Shown here one piece after another: positions 12,772 to 64,000 of a stretch of 64,000 nt of DNA. The stretch lies in assembly GCF_053078305.1 (NCBI RefSeq), contig NZ_CP166879.1; one strand, given 5' to 3'. The notes under the pieces are model-generated. The model was not told where the DNA came from. It saw nothing but the letters and a program-made list of their open reading frames with translations, and made no database searches. How positions within the stretch are numbered: the first letter of the stretch is position 1; each line of letters opens with the position of its first letter. Position numbers and translations under genes: made by a program.

Positions 12772-12858
12772 AAATCCCGACCCTGAGGGGGTCGGGATGA
12801 AACTTGCTTAAGCAAGAAGCACTTAAAAAATTCGTTACACCAGGAAATCTGATGTGTT
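12772..12858 (-). ncRNA. dsrA: DsrA small regulatory RNA (Hfq-dependent; known to activate rpoS and repress hns translation)
   Basis: Minus strand reads AACACATCAGATTTCCTGGTGTAACGAATTTTTTAAGTGCTTCTTGCTTAAGCAAGTTTCATCCCGACCCCCTCAGGGTCGGGATTT, matching DsrA from memory, with terminal hairpin and U-tract. Confidence 0.88.
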
Positions 12859-20737: not shown

Positions 20738-21103
20738 TTATTCATAGCGTCTGCTACGTGCGGGACGAGGTCGGGTGTACCAGGCAATGCTGCCTAACAA
20801 TGCCCCGACCAGAGCCATAAATAAAAATCCGACCAGTGCCCCTAACCACTTTCCCGCGGTAGAGCCTAAATCGCTTTCAAATCCCGACACGGGGGCATCG
20901 GGGATCCGGCTCATCACCCAGATGTAACGCGCCATTGCCCAGACGAAATAGCCACACCATGTATAGAAAGCCCACAATGCCAGTTTGCCGCCAGGGCTGC
21001 GAGAGAGTCTCTCTTCCATCTTTGTAGAACCGTATTCCATTTTGAGATAACCCGGAAAATTCAGACTTAGTACTATTATGTGATAAAAGTCACATTTTTC
21101 CAC
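20738..21103 (-). CDS. yedR: inner membrane protein YedR
   Basis: ORF 20738..21121; probable GTG start at 21103 (121 aa), alternative ATG at 21040; two TM segments. Confidence 0.75.
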   Translation of the reverse strand: MEKCDFYHIIVLSLNFPGYLKMEYGSTKMEERLSRSPGGKLALWAFYTWCGYFVWAMARYIWVMSRIPDAPVSGFESDLGSTAGKWLGALVGFLFMALVGALLGSIAWYTRPRPARSRRYE

Positions 21104-21261: not shown

Positions 21262-21358
21262 TATACCTTTTTATTATTCTGTGTCATGATGCTTCCGTTA
21301 TTAGCCTTTTATCGTCTTGTTTATATTTTTTGGGCCGGCATGATGCCGGCTTTTTTTT
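21262..21358 (+). ncRNA. candidate small RNA ending in a strong intrinsic terminator (possibly RseX, recalled to lie between yedR and yedS)
   Basis: GCCGGCATGATGCCGGC hairpin plus T8 at 21337-21361 in the AT-rich yedR-yedS intergenic region, no ORF upstream; 5' end not defined. Confidence 0.3.
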
Positions 21359-34427: not shown

Positions 34428-34568
34428 TTACTGCTTACACTGTAAGAACGCCGCAATCTCCGCGCCCGCTATCCGGAACCGGAACTCGCACAGTGAACTG
34501 TGGGTGATCCAGATAATGAGCACTACCGTGATACAAATCACGGTGGTTTTTAACGGTTTTTGCGACAT
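34428..34568 (-). CDS. Hok/Gef-family type I toxin-like small membrane protein
   Basis: 46-aa ORF below the track cutoff: MSQKPLKTTVICITVVLIIWITHSSLCEFRFRIAGAEIAAFLQCKQ; preceded by AAGGAG; TM helix plus LCExRxR...E[IV]AAF pattern. Confidence 0.55.
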   Translation of the reverse strand: MSQKPLKTTVICITVVLIIWITHSSLCEFRFRIAGAEIAAFLQCKQ

Positions 34569-34766: not shown

Positions 34767-37700
34767 TCACGAAATACTGATACCCGCCGTGGACTTCTTC
34801 ATCACGACAACCAGCAGATCGCTGATACTCGCTGTCGGGTACCATCCATTCACCAGCCAGGCAGACACAGAAAACTCCAGCGTCATATGCCCCCTTCCTG
34901 CAGGCATATCAATCACCCCTGAATACACCTGAGACTCAGCCAGCGCCGTCCTTTCAAAAAGCACCCTGCCGTTACATTTCACCATCAGCCGGCATGATGA
35001 ATAAATATCGTTATGCTCTCTCTCATGTTTAGCGCCGCTGAAAGCCACTGCCGGGATCACAATTTGCCGGTCAAAAGGCTGATCGTCATAAATCCTGACG
35101 GTAATGGTCCCCGATGGCCACCGCTCCGGTGCGCGGGAGTCCCGCGGGAAAGCCTTCCCCACGGTTTTAACAATATCGCCTTCAATCTGGTTGGCAGACA
35201 GTTTTCCAAGTATCCGGCAGTTCTGGTTAATGGTCACATTATTGAGCGTGCCCGAGTTCGCACTGATATGTCCGCTGATGTCCGCATTGCGGGCCGTCAG
35301 CCTGCCCTCCGGCGTCAGGGAGAACGTCGGGGGATTGCCGGACGAGGTGATGCTCACTGCAAACAACCGCTTCAGGAACACATCGTTCATGAACAGCTGA
35401 TTCCCCTGCGCCACAAACAGCGGCGTGGTGTTGCCGTTCTCCGGGTTAATCATCGCGATACGGTCCGCCTGCAGCAGTATATTGCTCAGGGGCTGGCCAT
35501 CAGCATCCTCAATCCCCGCACCAATACCGGCAACATACGGAATGCCGTTTTTCGTTTTCTGCACCTTCAGCATGTACAGCGCAGCCAGGTCGTTATTTGT
35601 GTCTGTCTGCACCCGCTGTATCTGCTGTATGGTGGCACTCTGGTCTTCCAGGGTTTTACTGACCGTCTGCGTGATTTCATTGCGGGTTTCGGTGATGGTG
35701 GTCTTCATCTCCGCCATCTCATCATCAAGCTGGCTGTTATCAATCAGCTCCCACATCCCCTGTGCCAGATGTGTCTTCCCGATTTCTCCTCTGAAAAAGT
35801 CCAGATACCCTTCCGCATCATTGCTGGCCCGGCCACTGGCTTCCACAAACGCAGATTTCCCCACCAGGTTGACGCTGCGCACATAAAACCAGAAATCCTT
35901 CCCCGGCTTAATGTGCGGGCCGGAGACACTCCACTGGCGGCCTGTCCCCAGATAACGGGCAGAGGTTTCCACCTGAGATGTGTCTGCGATTTTTGCCTCC
36001 GAAAACCAGAACTCAAATTGTACCGTCGGGTCATACACCGTAAGATGCGGGACCGCCGTTATCTGATAATACCCCGGCGTCAGCTCAATGCTGTCCGGTG
36101 CTGCCGGGGCGTTAATCCGGAACGTGGTGGTGGCAGGTTCGCCCTGCTGGCCGTAGCTGTTTATCGCCCTGACCGTCAGGGTGTATTCCCCGGGCGGCAG
36201 GCCACTGAAACGGTGCTCCGTATCGGCAGTGATGGCGCTGGTCACCAGGCGGCTGTTTTCACCACTGCCACTGGTCAGGCGCAGACTGAAGCGCACGCCC
36301 TTCACCACCCGCGGCGTGTCCCATTTTGCCAGCGCCATATACTGGCCGTCTGAGGCACTCACCTCCACCGTGAGGTGCTGCACTGCCGGCGGGATGACGC
36401 TGTTCAGTGAACCGGAGAGCGGCTCAAAGCGGGCCCCGTTATCCACGATGGCTTCTTTTTCCGGTACGTGCTGCACTGCCGTGATGGCAAAGGTGCCGTC
36501 CGTGTTTTCCCGGATGGAAACACAGCGGAACAGGCGACGACGCAGTGACGGCAGGGAGAGTCCCCACACACCGTATGTCTCCACGCCATCCGGCAGGGCG
36601 CTGACCTGTATCCGGTCAGGGGCGGGGTGTGCAGTGATGTCCACGCGCACCGGCTTACCGCTGCCGTTAATCAGGTTCACCGTCGATGTACCTGCTTCCG
36701 GCAGTGTCACCTCACGGTCCAGCGTCAGTGTGCGGCTGGCGGCATCGATGGACAGGATGCGTCCACCGGTCAGGGTCCCGGCATAGTCGTTATCACAGAT
36801 TTCAATGATGTCACCGGGCGTGTGCCGCAGCCCCTGTGACCCGAGCATGAAATCCACCGTCTGTGTTTCCAGCAGTTCTGTCTTTATCACCCACAGTCCG
36901 GCACGGTGGGCCTGACCGCGGCTGGTACAGCCGAACGCATCCATCTTCAGCAGATTGCGCCCGTAGCGCAGGATGGCGTCCGGGTCTTCCACCAGTTCCG
37001 TGGAAGTCTGCCAGCCGTTCTGCGGGTCAGTGTAATTCACCTCCACCGCCGTGTGCCGGTCCTTCAGGGCACTGAAGCTGTAGCGGAACCCCACGCCGTT
37101 ATCATCCACCACCACATCGCTGTTGGTGTACGGCCACACCACATCCGACGGACGGTCCTGAACGAACGTCAGCGTCTGGCCGTTCCATACCGGCATACAG
37201 CGCATCGCCGAGCAGAAATCCCCCAGGACATCCCACACCTTACGCTGCTGTGACAGGTACGCATTGAAAGTCATCCGCGGCTCTGTTCCCCCGAAACCAT
37301 CCGGGACCGTCTGGTCACAGTACTGCCCGATGGCATACAGTGCCCACTTGTCCACGTCCGGGGCCCCCAGGCGTTTTCCCATCCCGTAGCGCGGGTGGGT
37401 CAGCATGTCCCACAGGCACCAGGCCGGGTTATTGCTGTATGCCGGTTTCAGACTCCCGTCCCAGATACCGCTGTAGGTGCGTTTTTCCGGGTCATAGTTT
37501 GACGGCACCTGAATGATGCGACCACGGATATGGTAGTTCACCGTCAGCTGCTGGCCACCAAACTGCTCCGCATCCACCTGCAGCCCCACAATGGCCGTGT
37601 TCGGGTAGCACTGTTTCACATCGATGATTTCGGTGTATGACGACCACAGCGTTCTGTTCTGCAGCTGGTCCGTGGTGCTGTCCGCCGTCTCCCTGACCAT

Positions 37701-38240
37701 CCGGATGTTAAAGGGGCGCTCAGGGAGATTATTCAGAATCACCGACGTCAGGTACTGCGAGGTGGTCTTGCCGTTAATGGTGATATCCTTCTCCGTCACC
37801 CAGTGCCCGTTACGCTCAAGCTGAATCAGCAGGCGGACAGAAGAGGGATTACGGTCACCCTTTGAGGTGGTCTCCACCAGTGACTGTACCCCGAAGGTGA
37901 CCCGCAGACGGTCAATGTTCGCTGACGTGATGGTGCGCGTCACCGGCTTTGCCTTCGTCACCTCCACGCCCAGTGCGGTTTCCGCCCCGGAGGACTCAAA
38001 GCCTTCCGGCGGTGTCTGCTCCTGCTCCCCGGCACGCCAGACGGCGGTCACACCGTGTATCACAGGATTACCGTCCGTGTCCGTCAGCGGGGTTTTGTTC
38101 ACCAGAATACTCTGCAGTCCCTTCACCGGGCCTTCCACCGGTCCCTCACCAATGGCATCAATCACGCTCATCATCTGCGTGGATTTGAGATTGTCCTTCG
38201 CCTCACGCGGTGTGTGCCCCTTGCCGCCCCCTTTACCCAC
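34767..38240 (-). CDS. J: host specificity protein J (central tail fiber)
   Basis: ORF 34767..38291; GTG start at 38240 gives [22 protein letters not shown] aligned to lambda J N-terminus; similarity along most of the length, C-terminal 150 aa divergent. Confidence 0.92.
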
Positions 38241-38280
38241 TCTGTCCCCCTCTCCTGTCTGATGTCTGAATCTGTTTATG

Positions 38281-38314
38281 CCCAAAAACAACAGGCACCC
38301 CGGAGGGTGCCTGT
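38281..38314 (-). terminator. intrinsic terminator-like hairpin upstream of J
   Basis: Minus strand: 9-bp stem CAGGCACCC/GGGTGCCTG, loop, then TTGTTTTTGGG. Confidence 0.5.
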
Positions 38315-38329
38315 GTCATGACGGAATAA

Positions 38330-38488
38330 AATTTCTGAAATTCTTCACATTTCCGGCAATTGCCTGTAGCCACTATAATGACGCAGCGTTACAGTTTTTT
38401 TGCTCAATAAAAGCAATAATTATCAGACCTCCTTAAGGTGACTATTCGTCTCCCGTCAGTATCCGGCGATATTACGGGAGATTTTTTT
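38330..38488 (+). ncRNA. candidate small RNA, unit A
   Basis: TATAAT at 38374-38379, about 95 nt to terminator tcccgt...acggga plus T7. Confidence 0.35.
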
Positions 38489-38572
38489 GCTTCAGCCACA
38501 CCACAACATCCTGCTCATTTACGCCACTGGTACCCTGGCGGTCATCCGTTCTGTAAACCTGCGACAGAAAAA

Positions 38573-38722
38573 GTCTGAATTTCTTCACATTTTCTGTACG
38601 TTCCCGTGGCAGATATCATTCCGGGGCGTTACAGTTTTTTCGGGTCAATAAAAACAAAACTCCTTGAACGTTAATCTTCATCGGTTCTGTCCCGCAGTCT
38701 CCGGACTCTGCGGGATTTTTTT
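38573..38722 (+). ncRNA. candidate small RNA, unit B
   Basis: Same conserved box; weaker -10 (gatatcat); terminator cccgcagtctccggactctgcggg plus T7. Confidence 0.3.
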
Positions 38723-38800
38723 ATCCCTTAACCCCGGCATGATGTTTTCTGTCTTCTGCCACAGATACCCGGCAAGCTCCCTGCACCTCTGCAGCAAAAA

Positions 38801-38948
38801 ATTTCTGAATTTCTTCACATTTTCGCAAAATCCATGTGGCGCTTATAATTTCGCTGCGTTAATGTTTTTCTGCCCAAAAAAATAACTCCATAACGTTAAT
38901 CTTCATCGTTATTTCCCGCAGCTCCGCTAACTCTGCGGGATTTTTTTT
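38801..38948 (+). ncRNA. candidate small RNA, unit C
   Basis: TATAAT at 38844-38849; terminator cccgcagctccgctaactctgcggg plus T8. Confidence 0.35.
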
Positions 38949-38952
38949 ATTT

Positions 38953-39633
38953 TTATCCCCGCCCGATAACCACCACTTTCCCGTCTCCGCCCTCATCACG
39001 GGTGCTGATATCCTGGGATATCCGTCGTGAACCAACCAGCATTTCACCGTAAGGCACCGGCATCGGGTTACCCTGGGCAATCATGTTGTCCAGTGACGAA
39101 AAATACGTGTTCTGTTTACCGTTATCCGTACTTTTATACTCCGGCGTCTTTGCCTTCGGGGCCAGCATCTGAGCCACACCACCCAGTATCATGCTGGCAC
39201 CCAGTGAGAACAGCATCGTGGTGGCAGTCAGCCCTCCGGCACTCAGGGCTGCGCCCCATGCCGCCAGTGTTGCACCACCAGTGAAAAATGACCCGACAAT
39301 CGCTGCAACCCCCAGCACCACCTGAAAAACACCATTTCCCCCGGCTCCGGCCAGTCGCGGCACAATGTGGATGACCGCTCCCTCACCCAGTTGTTCGTGA
39401 AGACGGGCGTACACCGCCTCCGGTGCGGTATCCTCACCGGCAATACGTATCTGATACCAGCCTTCGTTCATCTGACCGCGGAATCCCGGCACCTGCAGCG
39501 ACAGGGCACGGATGGCCTCCGCTGCCGTGTTCACATACAGGCTGATGCGGCGACCAAATCGTTGTAAATCCCCGTGAAGGCAGATGCGGACCAGTGGCGG
39601 TGACGCCAGACAGAATGCGTTCGTCGTTGCCAT
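38953..39633 (-). CDS. I: tail assembly protein I
   Basis: 226-aa ORF MATTNAFCLASPPLVRICLHGDLQRFGRRISLYVNTAAEAIRALSLQ... resembling lambda gpI. Confidence 0.9.
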   Translation of the reverse strand: MATTNAFCLASPPLVRICLHGDLQRFGRRISLYVNTAAEAIRALSLQVPGFRGQMNEGWYQIRIAGEDTAPEAVYARLHEQLGEGAVIHIVPRLAGAGGNGVFQVVLGVAAIVGSFFTGGATLAAWGAALSAGGLTATTMLFSLGASMILGGVAQMLAPKAKTPEYKSTDNGKQNTYFSSLDNMIAQGNPMPVPYGEMLVGSRRISQDISTRDEGGDGKVVVIGRG

Positions 39634-41019: not shown

Positions 41020-41192
41020 GAACAATAAAAGTCCAATTTAAAATAAAACCAATAAAGGTAATAACAGAAAGTTAAATCAGCACATGCCAGATGGCAATTG
41101 CTGATCGCAGTGACCAATGAAAACTGTGTTTTCATTGATACAGGCCGCCTGTAAGGGCAGACGGCCCGTATTTATTAACTTATCAGCAATAA

Positions 41193-62937: not shown

Positions 62938-63132
62938 GAATCCTCCCGGTCGGGATAATGTTGTGAGTCAGATAAGGGGCGGGCTGAAGTCCGGAAGTTA
63001 CAGGACAATGACAGAAGGAAGACTACAGCCCGCAATACGAAAAAGGCCGCGCAGTTGCGCAGAGTGATTACTGTCGGGTATTATTCGCCAGCTGAAAAAT
63101 TGATTACTTCACGTTTTGTTGTTTATTCCTTG

Positions 63133-63833
63133 CTGCCCGCATCTCACCATGCGGGCTTTTTTTATCCATAAGAAAGCCCCTCCGGAGAGGGGCTGGAGTA
63201 GCGCTATGTACCGTTCATTGCATGATGCCGGGTGCCTCCCGGTGAGTTCAGCCCGGTGCCACCGAACCCGCGTCATTCTCGCTAACGATCATCAGAGACC
63301 ATACCGTACACCAGCCGCCCCTCCGCACAGGGGGATTCATCATGCAGAAATTTTTTAACAAATTCTCAGTCGGGAAGACAACCTTCAACTGACTGAATTG
63401 TGAGCAACATAGCATTTAACGGGGAACCTGTTTTCTGCAGTAAAAAGGCCCACCGGAGCGGACGGGCCTGGAAGGATAGCGGTCATGTGATGCCGGTTTC
63501 CCGGTAACTCAGCACCGGTATCTGAGTCAACGTTTTCTCTACTGGGTCATTTCCGATACGCCCTGCCTGCTGACAGGCTTTCATCACATCTGAAAATATA
63601 GCACCCTGACTGATACTGTAGTACCCAAGGTTCCAGAAACTGTGATGTATCCGGCACAGAAAAGCCCCTCCGGAGAGGGGCTGACGCTGCGTATCTGTAT
63701 CATCATGCGCATGGTGCCGGGTGCCTCCCGGTGAGTTCAGTATCAGCACCTGAACCCGCACAGAAAGGATAAGGGATGTAACCAAACACCTGTCGCTGAT
63801 ATGCCCCTCCGCTCAGGGGGATTCACCATGCCA
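63133..63833. repeat. imperfect direct repeat (two copies, period about 488 bp) of a hairpin-rich element upstream of the esterase gene
   Basis: Shared blocks gcccctccggagaggggc (63176 / 63664), ccgggtgcctcccggtgagttcag (63228 / 63716), cagggggattca(t/c)catgc (63319 / 63806); additional hairpin plus T7 at 63133-63158. Confidence 0.8.
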
Positions 63834-64000
63834 GTTTCTTTTAACAAACTCCCCGCAAATCAGACAACTGTCAACCGTCTGAATTGTGAGACATTTAAAA
63901 TTTTCGGGGCAACAGGAAGACAATCATCACGACACCGGCAACCAGCGACCGGCACCAGATTTAACGTATGTGCACACAACCTGAACCGGCATCAAAAAAC

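What the first reader, a model, noticed from the sequence alone, without database searches (positions are those of the whole stretch)
38281..38952. Three tandem ORF-less promoter-terminator units between tail genes I and J: candidate small-RNA array
Lambda has no insert between I and J. Here about 660 bp holds three related units on the plus strand, antisense to the tail operon. Each has a conserved box (aatttctgaaWttcttcacatttt), a TATAAT-like element (perfect in units A and C), a roughly 95-nt body with shared blocks (gcgttacagttttttt, tcaataaaa, cgttaatcttcatcg in B and C) and a strong intrinsic terminator (38451-38488, 38691-38722, 38915-38948). No ORF fits. The architecture is that of short terminated transcripts, and the terminator hairpin plus U-tract is the usual Hfq-binding module. 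My hypothesis is an array of prophage small RNAs, possibly sponge or anti-sRNA type; the spacer after unit A carries a CA-rich tract (cacaccacaacatcc). The promoter spacing does not fit a canonical sigma-70 -35/-10 pair, so the conserved box may instead be a regulator binding site.
Basis: partly seen in the sequence, partly recalled or inferred. Interest (0 to 1): 0.85.

Follow-up and report, generated by a model that had tools for sequence, protein, structure and literature searches.

The report
Tandem PasB-family prophage small RNA genes
The gap between tail genes I and J holds three head-to-tail copies of a prophage small-RNA gene family (PasB in EPEC, EcOnc22-24 in EHEC) already shown elsewhere to be Hfq-dependent; the family is known, and the stacked, sequence-diversified array is the new part.

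Summary
Window 38250-38952, the I-J gap, carries three related plus-strand units, each with a conserved box, -10-like elements, an ~80-100-nt body and a strong terminator.

The units are not a new class. They are homologues of PasB, an 83-nt Hfq-dependent, Northern-validated sRNA of EPEC E2348/69 that lies in the same I-J gap. They also match EcOnc22/23/24, Hfq-crosslinked ~85-nt sRNAs in the I-J gaps of three O157 Sakai prophages. Unit C is nearly identical to EcOnc22 and unit B is a clear member. Unit A shares the promoter and 5' half but has a different seed and terminator.

Of 78 related prophage gaps, 52 hold one unit, 7 hold two, 1 holds three, 2 hold four, and 16 hold a sodC gene plus a promoter-less body.

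The conserved box matches a CRP site (TCTGA-N6-TCACA). It sits at -60.5 relative to an invariant TAnnnT hexamer, and that hexamer predicts PasB's mapped 5' end.

PasB's strongest RIL-seq partners pair with nt 22-40, which is the segment that differs among units A, B and C.

The sponge/anti-sRNA idea is not supported.

Verdict: a new variant (seed-diversified tandem array) of a known sRNA family. Expression in this strain is untested.

The parts
34767..38249 (-). Tail tip/host-specificity gene J; real start is GTG at 38249
   Evidence: ORF list. N-terminal translation [22 protein letters not shown]. Annotation transferred from the 98.7%-identical S19-141 prophage.
38291..38314 (-). GC-rich hairpin followed by UGUUUUUGG on the late-operon strand, about 40 nt upstream of J. 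Conserved in the E2348/69 and Sakai gaps. Role unknown.
   Evidence: Terminator scan; alignment A1; Sakai sequence.
38328..38354 (+). Unit A conserved box; CRP-like core TCTGA-N6-TCACA at 38334-38349
   Evidence: 13/16 match to the CRP consensus.
38374..38395 (+). Unit A promoter core: TATAAT 38374-38379 (would start the RNA at G38386) and the invariant TAnnnT hexamer TACAGT 38390-38395 (would start it at G38402)
   Evidence: Sequence; hexamer statistics over 79 unique units.
38402..38488 (+). Unit A RNA, 87 nt from the downstream -10 or 103 nt from 38386. (ARN)5 tract 38406-38420. Seed region ACCUCCUUAAGGUGACUAUUCGU 38427-38449. Terminator stem 38450-38456/38474-38480. U-run 38482-38488. This is the divergent 'A-type' paralogue.
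   Evidence: Fold. Covariance model (CM) R1 gives only 20 bits, E 0.063. The promoter and 5' half are 94% identical to the Sakai unit. The exact variant is found in 20 of 5426 E. coli genomes.
38489..38567 (.). Spacer A-B; contains CACAACA at about 38501-38507, outside the predicted RNA. No detectable coding homology.
38568..38594 (+). Unit B conserved box; CRP-like core at 38574-38589
   Evidence: 14/16.
38614..38635 (+). Unit B promoter core: TATCAT 38614-38619 and TACAGT 38630-38635
   Evidence: Sequence.
38642..38722 (+). Unit B RNA, 81 nt (97 nt if started at 38626). (ARN)4 tract. Seed region CUCCUUGAACGUUAAUCUUCAUCG 38660-38683. Terminator CCCGCAG 38691-38697 / CUGCGGG 38708-38714. U7 38716-38722.
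   Evidence: CM R1 70 bits, E 2.7e-12; fold.
38723..38797 (.). Spacer B-C; homologous to spacers in the four-unit arrays
38798..38824 (+). Unit C conserved box; CRP-like core at 38804-38819
   Evidence: 13/16.
38844..38865 (+). Unit C promoter core: TATAAT 38844-38849 (with TTCGCA 16 nt upstream) and TAATGT 38860-38865
   Evidence: Promoter scan.
38872..38948 (+). Unit C RNA, 77 nt (93 nt if started at 38856). Seed region CUCCAUAACGUUAAUCUUCAUCG 38886-38908. Terminator 38915-38921/38933-38939. U8 38941-38948. Its 3' 67 nt differ from Sakai EcOnc22 by two substitutions and one extra U.
   Evidence: CM R1 85.3 bits, E 1.8e-15; comparison.
38953..39534 (-). Tail assembly gene I; its stop codon lies 4 nt from the end of unit C
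   Evidence: ORF list; RefSeq annotation of the homologous prophage.

Best explanation
The I-J gap carries three independently promoted and terminated genes for trans-acting, Hfq-dependent base-pairing sRNAs of the PasB/EcOnc22 family. They are transcribed from the prophage in the direction opposite to the late tail operon.

Each unit has the same parts:
- an upstream operator that looks like a class I CRP site;
- a weak sigma-70 promoter;
- a 5' A-rich (ARN)n tract, the Hfq distal-face type of motif;
- a single-stranded seed that runs from the conserved CUCCUU block to the conserved AUCUUCA block;
- an intrinsic terminator with a U-tail, the Hfq proximal-face module.

The seed pairs with mRNA 5'UTRs and start regions. 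Units B and C carry nearly the same seed. Unit A carries a different seed and a different terminator, so the array broadens or doses the regulatory output.

Shown here: the homology, the anatomy, conservation across prophages, and complementarity between the PasB seed and its published partners. Taken from the literature for homologues: expression, size and Hfq dependence. Inferred: expression of all three units in this strain, CRP control, and the targets of A, B and C.
For: Same slot and strand as PasB. PasB is at NC_011601 1466343-1466261 on the minus strand, between I (ends 1466255) and J (starts 1466496). The single E2348/69 unit aligns with units A, B and C.

Link to EcOnc22/23/24. Their Hfq-CRAC peaks fall on the unit bodies in the Sp15, Sp14 and Sp11 I-J gaps once a ~140-nt coordinate shift, measured on AgvB, is applied.

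Published data for PasB. Northern band of 83 nt; strongly reduced in delta-hfq (log2 -6.8 and -2.4); 37 RIL-seq interactions, 30 of them with CDS or 5'UTR regions.

Family model. A covariance model built from other family members scores unit C at 85 bits and unit B at 70 bits. It also finds a member abutting gene I in every locus searched.

Terminator. The stem is 100% paired in 36 distinct sequences while the loop varies freely.

A-rich tract. Runs of at least three ARN triplets occur in 69 of 79 unique RNAs, against 3 of 79 after shuffling.

Box. In units located by their terminator alone, 43 of 48 carry exact TCTGA-N6-TCACA with seven different N6 spacers, at a fixed distance from the downstream hexamer that puts its centre at -60.5. 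That hexamer is TAnnnT in 79 of 79 units and predicts PasB's mapped 5' end to within 1 nt.

Seed. Four of ten top RIL-seq partners (napF 5'UTR, fabR/yijD, caiF, ydbJ 5'UTR) have 9-11-nt perfect complementarity to PasB nt 22-40; 0-7 of 200 shuffles reach that length.
Against: There are no expression data for this strain or for any multi-unit array.

Unit A's RNA body is only marginally recognised by the family model (20 bits, E 0.063). Unit B's upstream hexamer is the weaker TATCAT.

Two candidate -10 elements exist, so the RNA length (77-87 nt or 93-103 nt) and the CRP geometry (-60.5 or -44.5) are unresolved.

The CRP assignment rests on a consensus match and on PasB being higher in overnight LB than in DMEM. 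Stationary phase or low oxygen would explain that difference equally well.

Stem covariation is nearly absent: one compensatory pair. Structure therefore rests on conservation and folding energy.

Six of the ten RIL-seq partners tested showed no significant perfect complementarity.
Confidence: 0.75

Rival explanations
1. Only the I-proximal unit C is a working sRNA gene. Units A and B are decaying by-products of unequal recombination between prophages.
For: Arrays are rare. One unit is the rule, in 52 of 78 gaps. The full three-unit sequence is covered at >=80% in 83 of 5426 genomes, and the exact unit A variant occurs in 20. The I-proximal position is always occupied. Unit A scores poorly with the family model. 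Unit B has TATCAT rather than TATAAT. Recombinant and deletion forms exist, such as the L127 A + B/C chimera.
Against: A near-identical promoter and closely related body of unit B's type is the sole unit in many prophages (variant V001 in 15 loci). Unit A keeps an exact box, TATAAT, TACAGT, an (ARN)5 tract and the strongest terminator of the three. A-type units with intact features recur in 2-, 3- and 4-unit arrays that are only ~70-80% identical to one another. That pattern suggests purifying selection rather than decay.
Confidence: 0.15
2. The units act mainly in cis, as antisense RNAs to the late tail-operon transcript at the I-J junction. They could do this by RNase III cleavage or by transcriptional interference, tuning J or I expression or silencing leaky late transcription in lysogens.
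For: All family members lie antisense inside the late operon, at a fixed slot abutting the I stop codon. They are therefore fully complementary to the late mRNA. A terminator-like hairpin on the late strand sits just before J.
Against: The RNAs overlap neither the I nor the J coding sequence, nor the J ribosome-binding site; the nearest predicted start, unit A's, is about 150 nt from J. PasB's recorded Hfq partners are trans-encoded core and island mRNAs. The seed is complementary to those partners. Lambda works without any such insert. This rival is not exclusive of the main explanation.
Confidence: 0.1
3. The RNAs are sponges (anti-sRNAs) for core sRNAs such as GcvB, like the prophage RNAs AgvB and AsxR.
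For: Prophage anti-sRNAs exist in EHEC. A CACAACA motif, the GcvB R1 target consensus, lies at about 38501-38507. The family carries ARN tracts, as AgvB does.
Against: The CACAACA motif lies after terminator A, outside the RNA, and is missing from the spacers of other arrays. A 7-mer in ~700 bp on two strands is expected by chance about 8% of the time. There is no Rfam AgvB or AsxR match in the gap. AgvB and AsxR are 51-60 nt and lie downstream of pR', not in the I-J gap. In the table parts read, none of PasB's partners is an annotated sRNA; only one is an sRNA-adjacent intergenic region.
Confidence: 0.05

Closest known systems
PasB, EPEC E2348/69 prophage PP6 (Pearl Mizrahi et al. 2021, PMC8550237; Zhu, Shabalina & Storz 2026 preprint, 10.64898/2026.05.13.724894)
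   Same: Same I-J slot and same antisense orientation. Same box, promoter layout, A-rich tract, CUCCUU and AUCUUCA blocks and CCCGCAG/CUGCGGG terminator. BLAST identity over the unit is 81% for unit C and 74% for unit B. PasB is Hfq-dependent and Northern-validated.
   Different: PasB is a single gene in a 240-nt gap; here there are three units in 703 nt. The centre of the seed differs (PasB UCACAUUG; unit C AUAACGUUA; unit A AAGGUGAC), so the strongest PasB partners are not complementary to units A-C. The 2026 survey used 28-nt words and >75% coverage. It reported no two pasB copies closer than 28 kb, so it did not detect tandem or divergent copies.
EcOnc22/23/24, EHEC O157:H7 Sakai prophages Sp15, Sp14 and Sp11 (Tree et al. 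2014, PMC4104026, Table S2)
   Same: I-J gap, plus strand against minus-strand tail genes. About 85 nt on Northern, Hfq-crosslinked, destabilised without Hfq. The body is nearly identical to unit C, and the promoter is 94% identical to unit A's.
   Different: One unit per prophage. The Sakai unit looks like a recombinant of an A-type promoter and a C-type body. Function and targets are listed as unknown. In the searched library I found no paper equating EcOnc22-24 with PasB.
AgvB and AsxR, prophage anti-sRNAs (Tree et al. 2014)
   Same: Prophage-encoded, Hfq-binding, ARN motif plus terminator, carried by lambdoid prophages of pathogenic E. coli.
   Different: They sit in a different location (moron site downstream of pR'), are shorter (51-60 nt), have no sequence or Rfam match here, and target sRNAs rather than mRNAs.
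Tandem sRNA paralogues elsewhere, such as OmrA/OmrB in E. coli, PrrF1/PrrF2 in Pseudomonas and LhrC1-4 in Listeria (from general knowledge, not tested here)
   Same: Adjacent, same-orientation, individually promoted and terminated sRNA genes with shared regulatory sequences and partly different pairing regions.
   Different: Those are chromosomal core-genome loci with no sequence relation to these units. This array sits inside a phage late operon, and its copy number varies from 1 to 4 between related prophages.

Membership tests
PasB / EcOnc22-24 prophage sRNA family | Encoded in the gap between tail genes I and J, antisense to the tail operon, with its 3' end abutting the I stop codon | tested here: met
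   Window gap 38250-38952; unit C ends 4 nt from I. Same layout in E2348/69, in Sakai Sp15/Sp14/Sp11, and in all searched loci anchored on the I protein.
PasB / EcOnc22-24 prophage sRNA family | Sequence and structure similarity of the RNA body to known members | tested here: met
   For units B and C: CM R1, built without window sequences, gives 70 and 85.3 bits (E 2.7e-12 and 1.8e-15). Unit C differs from EcOnc22 by 2 substitutions and 1 extra U over its 3' 67 nt.
PasB / EcOnc22-24 prophage sRNA family | The same RNA-body test applied to unit A | tested here: inconclusive
   CM R1 gives 20 bits, E 0.063, and BLAST aligns only the promoter and 5' part (38241-38400 is 94% identical to Sakai). 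Unit A shares the box, both hexamers, GCGUUA, the ARN tract and CUCCUUA, but has a different seed and terminator.
PasB / EcOnc22-24 prophage sRNA family | Shared upstream box and promoter architecture | tested here: met
   Alignment A1. The box is found three times against 0.01 expected. TAnnnT is present in 79 of 79 unique units.
PasB / EcOnc22-24 prophage sRNA family | Discrete ~83-85-nt transcript whose stability depends on Hfq | not testable with these tools
   Shown only for the homologues, by Northern and delta-hfq experiments. No transcript data exist for this window.
Hfq 'class II'-like sRNA (ARN tract plus terminator U-tail) | (ARN)n tract of at least 3 triplets upstream of the seed, and a rho-independent terminator with at least 6 U | tested here: met
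   Runs of 5, 4 and 3 ARN triplets in A, B and C; 69 of 79 family RNAs have at least 3, against 3 of 79 shuffles. Terminators with U7-U8. Which Hfq face is actually used was not testable.
Class I CRP-dependent promoter | CRP consensus site centred near -61.5 | tested here: inconclusive
   The site matches at 13-14 of 16 informative positions, against 0.23 such sites per 64 kb in shuffles. The half-sites are invariant and N6 is variable. The centre is at -60.5 if the downstream TAnnnT is the -10, but at -44.5 if TATAAT is. The transcription start is not mapped, and CRP dependence is untested.
AgvB/AsxR anti-sRNAs (Rfam RF02702, RF02703) | Match to the covariance model; 51-60 nt; located downstream of pR' | tested here: not met
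   No Rfam hit in the gap at gathering threshold or at E<=10, whereas the same tool finds AgvB in Sakai. Location and size also differ.
Any Rfam 15 family | Score at or above the gathering threshold | tested here: not met
   The best hit in the gap is STnc560 (the MgrR locus ydeI/ydeE in Salmonella) on the opposite strand, at 18.9 bits against a threshold of 55 (E 0.19). This is a chance match.

The most novel reading that the evidence does not exclude
The I-J gap of E. coli lambdoid prophages is a cassette site. Recombination at the conserved promoter and terminator modules stacks one to four Hfq sRNA genes under one shared cAMP-CRP-responsive operator, and shuffles promoters and bodies between units. 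Some pairing specificities, namely the A-type GGUGACUAUUCG seed and the D-type GUUAGUCAACAUCG seed, exist only inside arrays. On this reading an array is a phage-borne, nutrient-gated multi-seed regulator of host and virulence mRNAs, and the PasB family is far more diverse than published surveys report.
Probability: 0.35. Interest if true: 0.6.

Novelty: new variant of a known kind. Interest (0 to 1): 0.4.

Why it matters
PasB and EcOnc22-24 are among the most abundant Hfq-bound prophage sRNAs in EPEC and EHEC, yet their function is still listed as unknown. PasB's recorded partners include virulence transcripts (map, espC, bfpB, cesD2).

This work contributes four things:
- it ties the two names to one family and gives it a defined anatomy;
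- it places a candidate seed at PasB nt 22-40;
- it points to a candidate regulator, CRP;
- it shows that the family varies in copy number and seed between prophages.

Together these give concrete, cheap experiments. They also suggest that lysogens with different prophages differ in post-transcriptional wiring. Finally, published distribution surveys that rely on stringent BLAST appear to under-count the family.

Tried and rejected
- **Rfam.** Searches at the gathering threshold and at E<=10 found no family in the gap. The weak minus-strand STnc560 hit was checked: STnc560 is the ydeI/ydeE (MgrR) locus of Salmonella, so this is chance.
- **Spacers as gene I remnants.** The minus-strand translations look vaguely like the I C-terminus. 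However, tblastn against 120 loci found no intact I gene ending that way, only homologous spacers in other arrays. PHROGs gave nothing. Idea dropped as unproven.
- **Small-protein coding.** Rejected: no ORF is confined to a unit and none has homology.
- **Consensus structure.** RNAalifold on a MAFFT alignment of 27 diverse units returned no structure, because the terminator arms were misaligned. A model-fitted alignment showed 100% pairing but only one compensatory change, so covariation neither supports nor refutes the hairpin.
- **GcvB-sponge idea (CACAACA).** The motif lies outside the RNA and is not conserved.
- **Divergent minus-strand promoter feeding the J-proximal hairpin.** None was evident by eye or in the promoter scan.
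- **EcOnc22 coordinates.** Taken at face value they fall upstream of the unit. This was resolved by measuring a ~137-146-nt shift between the 2014 coordinates and NC_002695.2 on AgvB. The shift was measured at 1.94 Mb and is assumed to hold at 2.17-2.90 Mb.
- **RNAduplex.** On whole target windows it gave long, loopy duplexes that were hard to interpret. It was replaced by a longest-perfect-match test with shuffles.
Full report
**1. What is in the sequence**

The window carries a lambdoid prophage whose late tail genes run on the minus strand. J is 34767-38249; its real start is GTG 38249, giving [23 protein letters not shown] is 38953-39534. K, L, an ompC-like porin moron, M and the tape-measure gene follow. 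This map comes from the ORF list and from RefSeq annotation of a 98.7%-identical prophage in strain S19-141.

The I-J gap is therefore 38250-38952, or 703 nt. Lambda has only 60 nt there.

- An 81-nt repeat family begins at 38319, 38559 and 38789.
- The box TTCTGAANNTCTTCACATTT occurs three times in the window, all here, against 0.01 expected.
- Three strong 3' hairpins with U7-U8 tails are present.
- Only short ORFs cross the units, and they have no homology.

**2. What it is**

Rfam has no family for this gap, but the literature does.

PasB, one of five 'pathogenicity-associated' sRNAs found by RIL-seq in EPEC E2348/69, maps to NC_011601 1466343-1466261 on the minus strand. RefSeq places the tail assembly gene I up to 1466255 and gpJ from 1466496, both on the plus strand. 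PasB is thus the single occupant of a 240-nt I-J gap, antisense to the tail operon. Its unit aligns with each of units A, B and C through the box, the -10 region, the GCGTTA block, the A-rich tract, the CUCCUU and AUCUUCA blocks and the terminator.

Tree et al. 2014 list EcOnc22, EcOnc23 and EcOnc24 in Sakai prophages Sp15, Sp14 and Sp11. EcOnc22 gave a ~85-nt Northern band and was destabilised in delta-hfq; EcOnc23 and EcOnc24 are its listed homologues. The three Hfq peaks lie on the plus strand next to the three I-J gaps of NC_002695.2.

The 2014 coordinates are shifted by about 140 nt relative to NC_002695.2. I measured this on AgvB: Rfam places it at 1941920-1941981, against 1941783-1941835 in the paper. 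With that shift the peaks cover the body and terminator of the unit. The shift is assumed constant between 1.94 and 2.9 Mb. The three peaks do sit at the same offset from their J starts, which supports the assumption.

Unit C's 3' 67 nt differ from the Sakai RNA by two substitutions and one extra U.

A covariance model built from 18 family members from other sources scores unit C at 85.3 bits and unit B at 70 bits, but unit A at only 20 bits (E 0.063). Unit A's homology is clear in its promoter and 5' part: 38241-38400 is 94% identical to the Sakai gap. Its seed and terminator are different.

In the library I could search, no paper equates PasB with EcOnc22-24. The PasB entry in the 2021 table has no EHEC note, and only one review mentions EcOnc22.

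**3. How common are arrays**

Scanning IMG/VR with the box gave 120 loci. A second, box-independent set of 80 loci was anchored on the I protein.

The 78 complete I-J gaps in that second set break down as follows.

| Gap content | Gaps | Gap length (nt) |
|---|---|---|
| One unit | 52 | about 230-340 |
| Two units | 7 | 412-480 |
| Three units | 1 | 706 |
| Four units | 2 | about 910 |
| sodC gene with its own terminator, then a promoter-less PasB body | 16 | 845 |

The sodC gene encodes a Cu/Zn superoxide dismutase and lies on the sRNA strand.

Every locus searched has a family member abutting gene I.

Among complete E. coli genomes, 807 of 5426 match part of the 741-nt query, 83 cover at least 80% of it, and only 20 carry this exact unit A; those listed were human isolates, many with STEC strain names. 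RefSeq annotates nothing in the gap.

The 2026 preprint on Pas sRNA distribution searched with the 83-nt E2348/69 sequence, 28-nt words and >75% coverage. It reports that pasB copies are never closer than 28 kb. Tandem and divergent copies were therefore not seen.

Units recombine.
- The Sakai unit is an A-type promoter joined to a C-type body.
- L127 is unit A followed by a B/C chimera.

Classified by seed, A-type (GGUGACUAUUCG) and D-type (GUUAGUCAACAUCG) units occur only inside arrays in this sample. The 76 distinct single units all carry AAUCUUCAU, AAUCUUCGU or AAUCUUUGU seeds.

**4. Anatomy and likely mechanism**

*(a) Operator.* The box core is TCTGA-N6-TCACA with A/T-rich flanks. It matches 13-14 of the 16 informative positions of the CRP consensus AAATGTGATCTAGATCACATTT. 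Sites that good occur 0.23 times per 64 kb in shuffles. In units located by their terminator only, 43 of 48 unique units have both half-sites exact while the N6 spacer takes seven forms. The five exceptions are the sodC-linked bodies. Conserved half-sites with a free spacer are what a dimeric CRP-family protein would impose.

*(b) Promoter.* There are two -10 candidates. The upstream hexamer is TATAAT in 34 of 79 unique units, AATAAT in 22 and TATCAT in 13. The downstream hexamer, inside the conserved GCGTTAnnGT, is TAnnnT in 79 of 79.
- The downstream hexamer predicts a start at the G after the T-run. That is 1 nt from the RNA-seq 5' end reported for PasB, and it gives the observed 83 nt. TATAAT would give about 98 nt.
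- Relative to the downstream hexamer the box centre is at -60.5 in 39 of 43 units, within 1 bp of the class I CRP position. Relative to TATAAT it is at -44.5, which is not a standard position.
- One A-type variant (L068) lacks TATAAT but keeps TAGATT.
- PasB is higher in overnight static LB than in exponential DMEM, and Spot 42, which CRP represses, behaves oppositely. This fits CRP activation, but stationary phase or low oxygen would fit as well.

*(c) RNA.* At the 5' end is an A-rich tract with three or more consecutive ARN triplets in 69 of 79 RNAs, against 3 of 79 shuffles. [quoted passage not shown] Next comes a single-stranded segment bounded by the conserved CUCCUU and AUCUUCA blocks. 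Last is the terminator, whose seven pairs are formed in all 36 distinct sequences while the loop varies in length and sequence, with one compensatory G-C to A-U change.

*(d) Seed.* I took the ten strongest PasB partners from the published RIL-seq table, fetched their read regions and searched for perfect complementarity to PasB.

| Partner | Perfect match (nt) | PasB sequence paired |
|---|---|---|
| napF 5'UTR | 11 | CUUCACAUUGA |
| fabR 3' end / yijD start | 11 | UCCUUCACAUU |
| caiF start | 9 | UCCUUCACA |
| ydbJ 5'UTR | 9 | UGAUCUUCA |

All four fall in PasB nt 22-40, and 0-7 of 200 shuffles reach the same length. The other six partners were not significant. This places the seed where the 2026 preprint proposed it from conservation.

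That segment is the one that differs among the window's units.
- Unit A: ACCUCCUUAAGGUGACUAUUCGU
- Unit B: CUCCUUGAACGUUAAUCUUCAUCG
- Unit C: CUCCAUAACGUUAAUCUUCAUCG

Units B and C share a 17-nt stretch. Unit A is distinct and contains ACCUCCUUA, which from general knowledge is identical to the 3' end of 16S rRNA, so it could pair with Shine-Dalgarno sequences. The strongest PasB partners are not complementary to A, B or C, so the target sets probably differ.

**5. Rivals**

A purely cis-antisense role on the late transcript cannot be excluded, but it is not needed. The RNAs overlap no coding sequence or ribosome-binding site, and PasB's partners are trans mRNAs.

That A and B are decaying duplicates is possible. 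Against it, B-type units serve as the only unit in many prophages, and A-type units keep every functional feature across diverged arrays.

The sponge idea fails on the position and non-conservation of the CA tract and on PasB's partner profile. Coding potential is absent.

**6. Verdict**

The units belong to a known, experimentally validated family (PasB / EcOnc22-24), so this is not a new class.

What appears new:
- the tandem, seed-diversified array and its A-type member;
- the equivalence of the two published names;
- the CRP-like operator at class I distance from an invariant -10;
- the localisation of the PasB seed from published interaction data.

Expression of the three units in this strain, CRP control and the targets remain inferences.

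Noticed in passing
window 63085-63163 (+): An ~80-nt element with an A-rich tract and a CCCGCA/UGCGGG terminator plus U7. It converges on and abuts STnc100 (63164-63374, minus strand). The PasB-family covariance model hits it weakly (24.4 bits, E 0.008), and no Rfam family matches. It may be one of the convergent sRNA pairs downstream of pR' described by Tree et al. 2014.
   Followed up: partly
window 63164-63374 and 63654-63860 (-), plus a weak third match at 63440-63613: Two full STnc100 copies (168 and 135 bits), with a degenerate third copy between them (28.5 bits). This is a second tandem sRNA arrangement in the same prophage. CRP-like half-sites AATTGTGAG lie about 22 nt upstream of each full copy, at 63396 and 63882.
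   Followed up: no
L155 (and 15 other loci), I-J gap of 845 nt: In 16 of 78 related prophages the I-J gap holds a Cu/Zn superoxide dismutase (sodC) moron on the sRNA strand. It is followed by its own terminator and by a PasB-type body that has lost the box and TATAAT but keeps TAATGT. That body could be a remnant, or it could be an sRNA driven by read-through.
   Followed up: partly
L203 and L169 (gap of ~335 nt): Some single-unit gaps carry an extra ~100-nt J-proximal segment. It ends in a plus-strand hairpin plus UUUUCUUU (AAACCCCGGTATCAGCAGATACCGGGGTTTTCTTTC), which may be another short terminated transcript upstream of the PasB unit.
   Followed up: no
window ~41192-42346 (-): An ompC-like porin gene sits between tail genes L and M on the tail-operon strand. 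It is annotated 'porin OmpC' in the near-identical S19-141 prophage. This is a second moron inside the tail operon.
   Followed up: no
window ~34428-34568 (-): A Hok/Gef-family toxin gene lies just downstream of J, by annotation transfer from S19-141.
   Followed up: no
window 12772-12858 (-) and 21268-21357 (+): The core sRNAs DsrA and RseX are present, so the left part of the window is chromosomal backbone. A perfect CRP-type palindrome, TGTGATAAAAGTCACA, lies at 21079-21094, upstream of rseX.
   Followed up: no
NC_002695.2 versus the coordinates in Tree et al. 2014, Table S2: The 2014 Sakai coordinates are about 137-146 nt lower than those of the current RefSeq record, measured at 1.94 Mb on AgvB. 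Anyone mapping EcOnc sRNAs onto NC_002695.2 needs this correction.
   Followed up: yes
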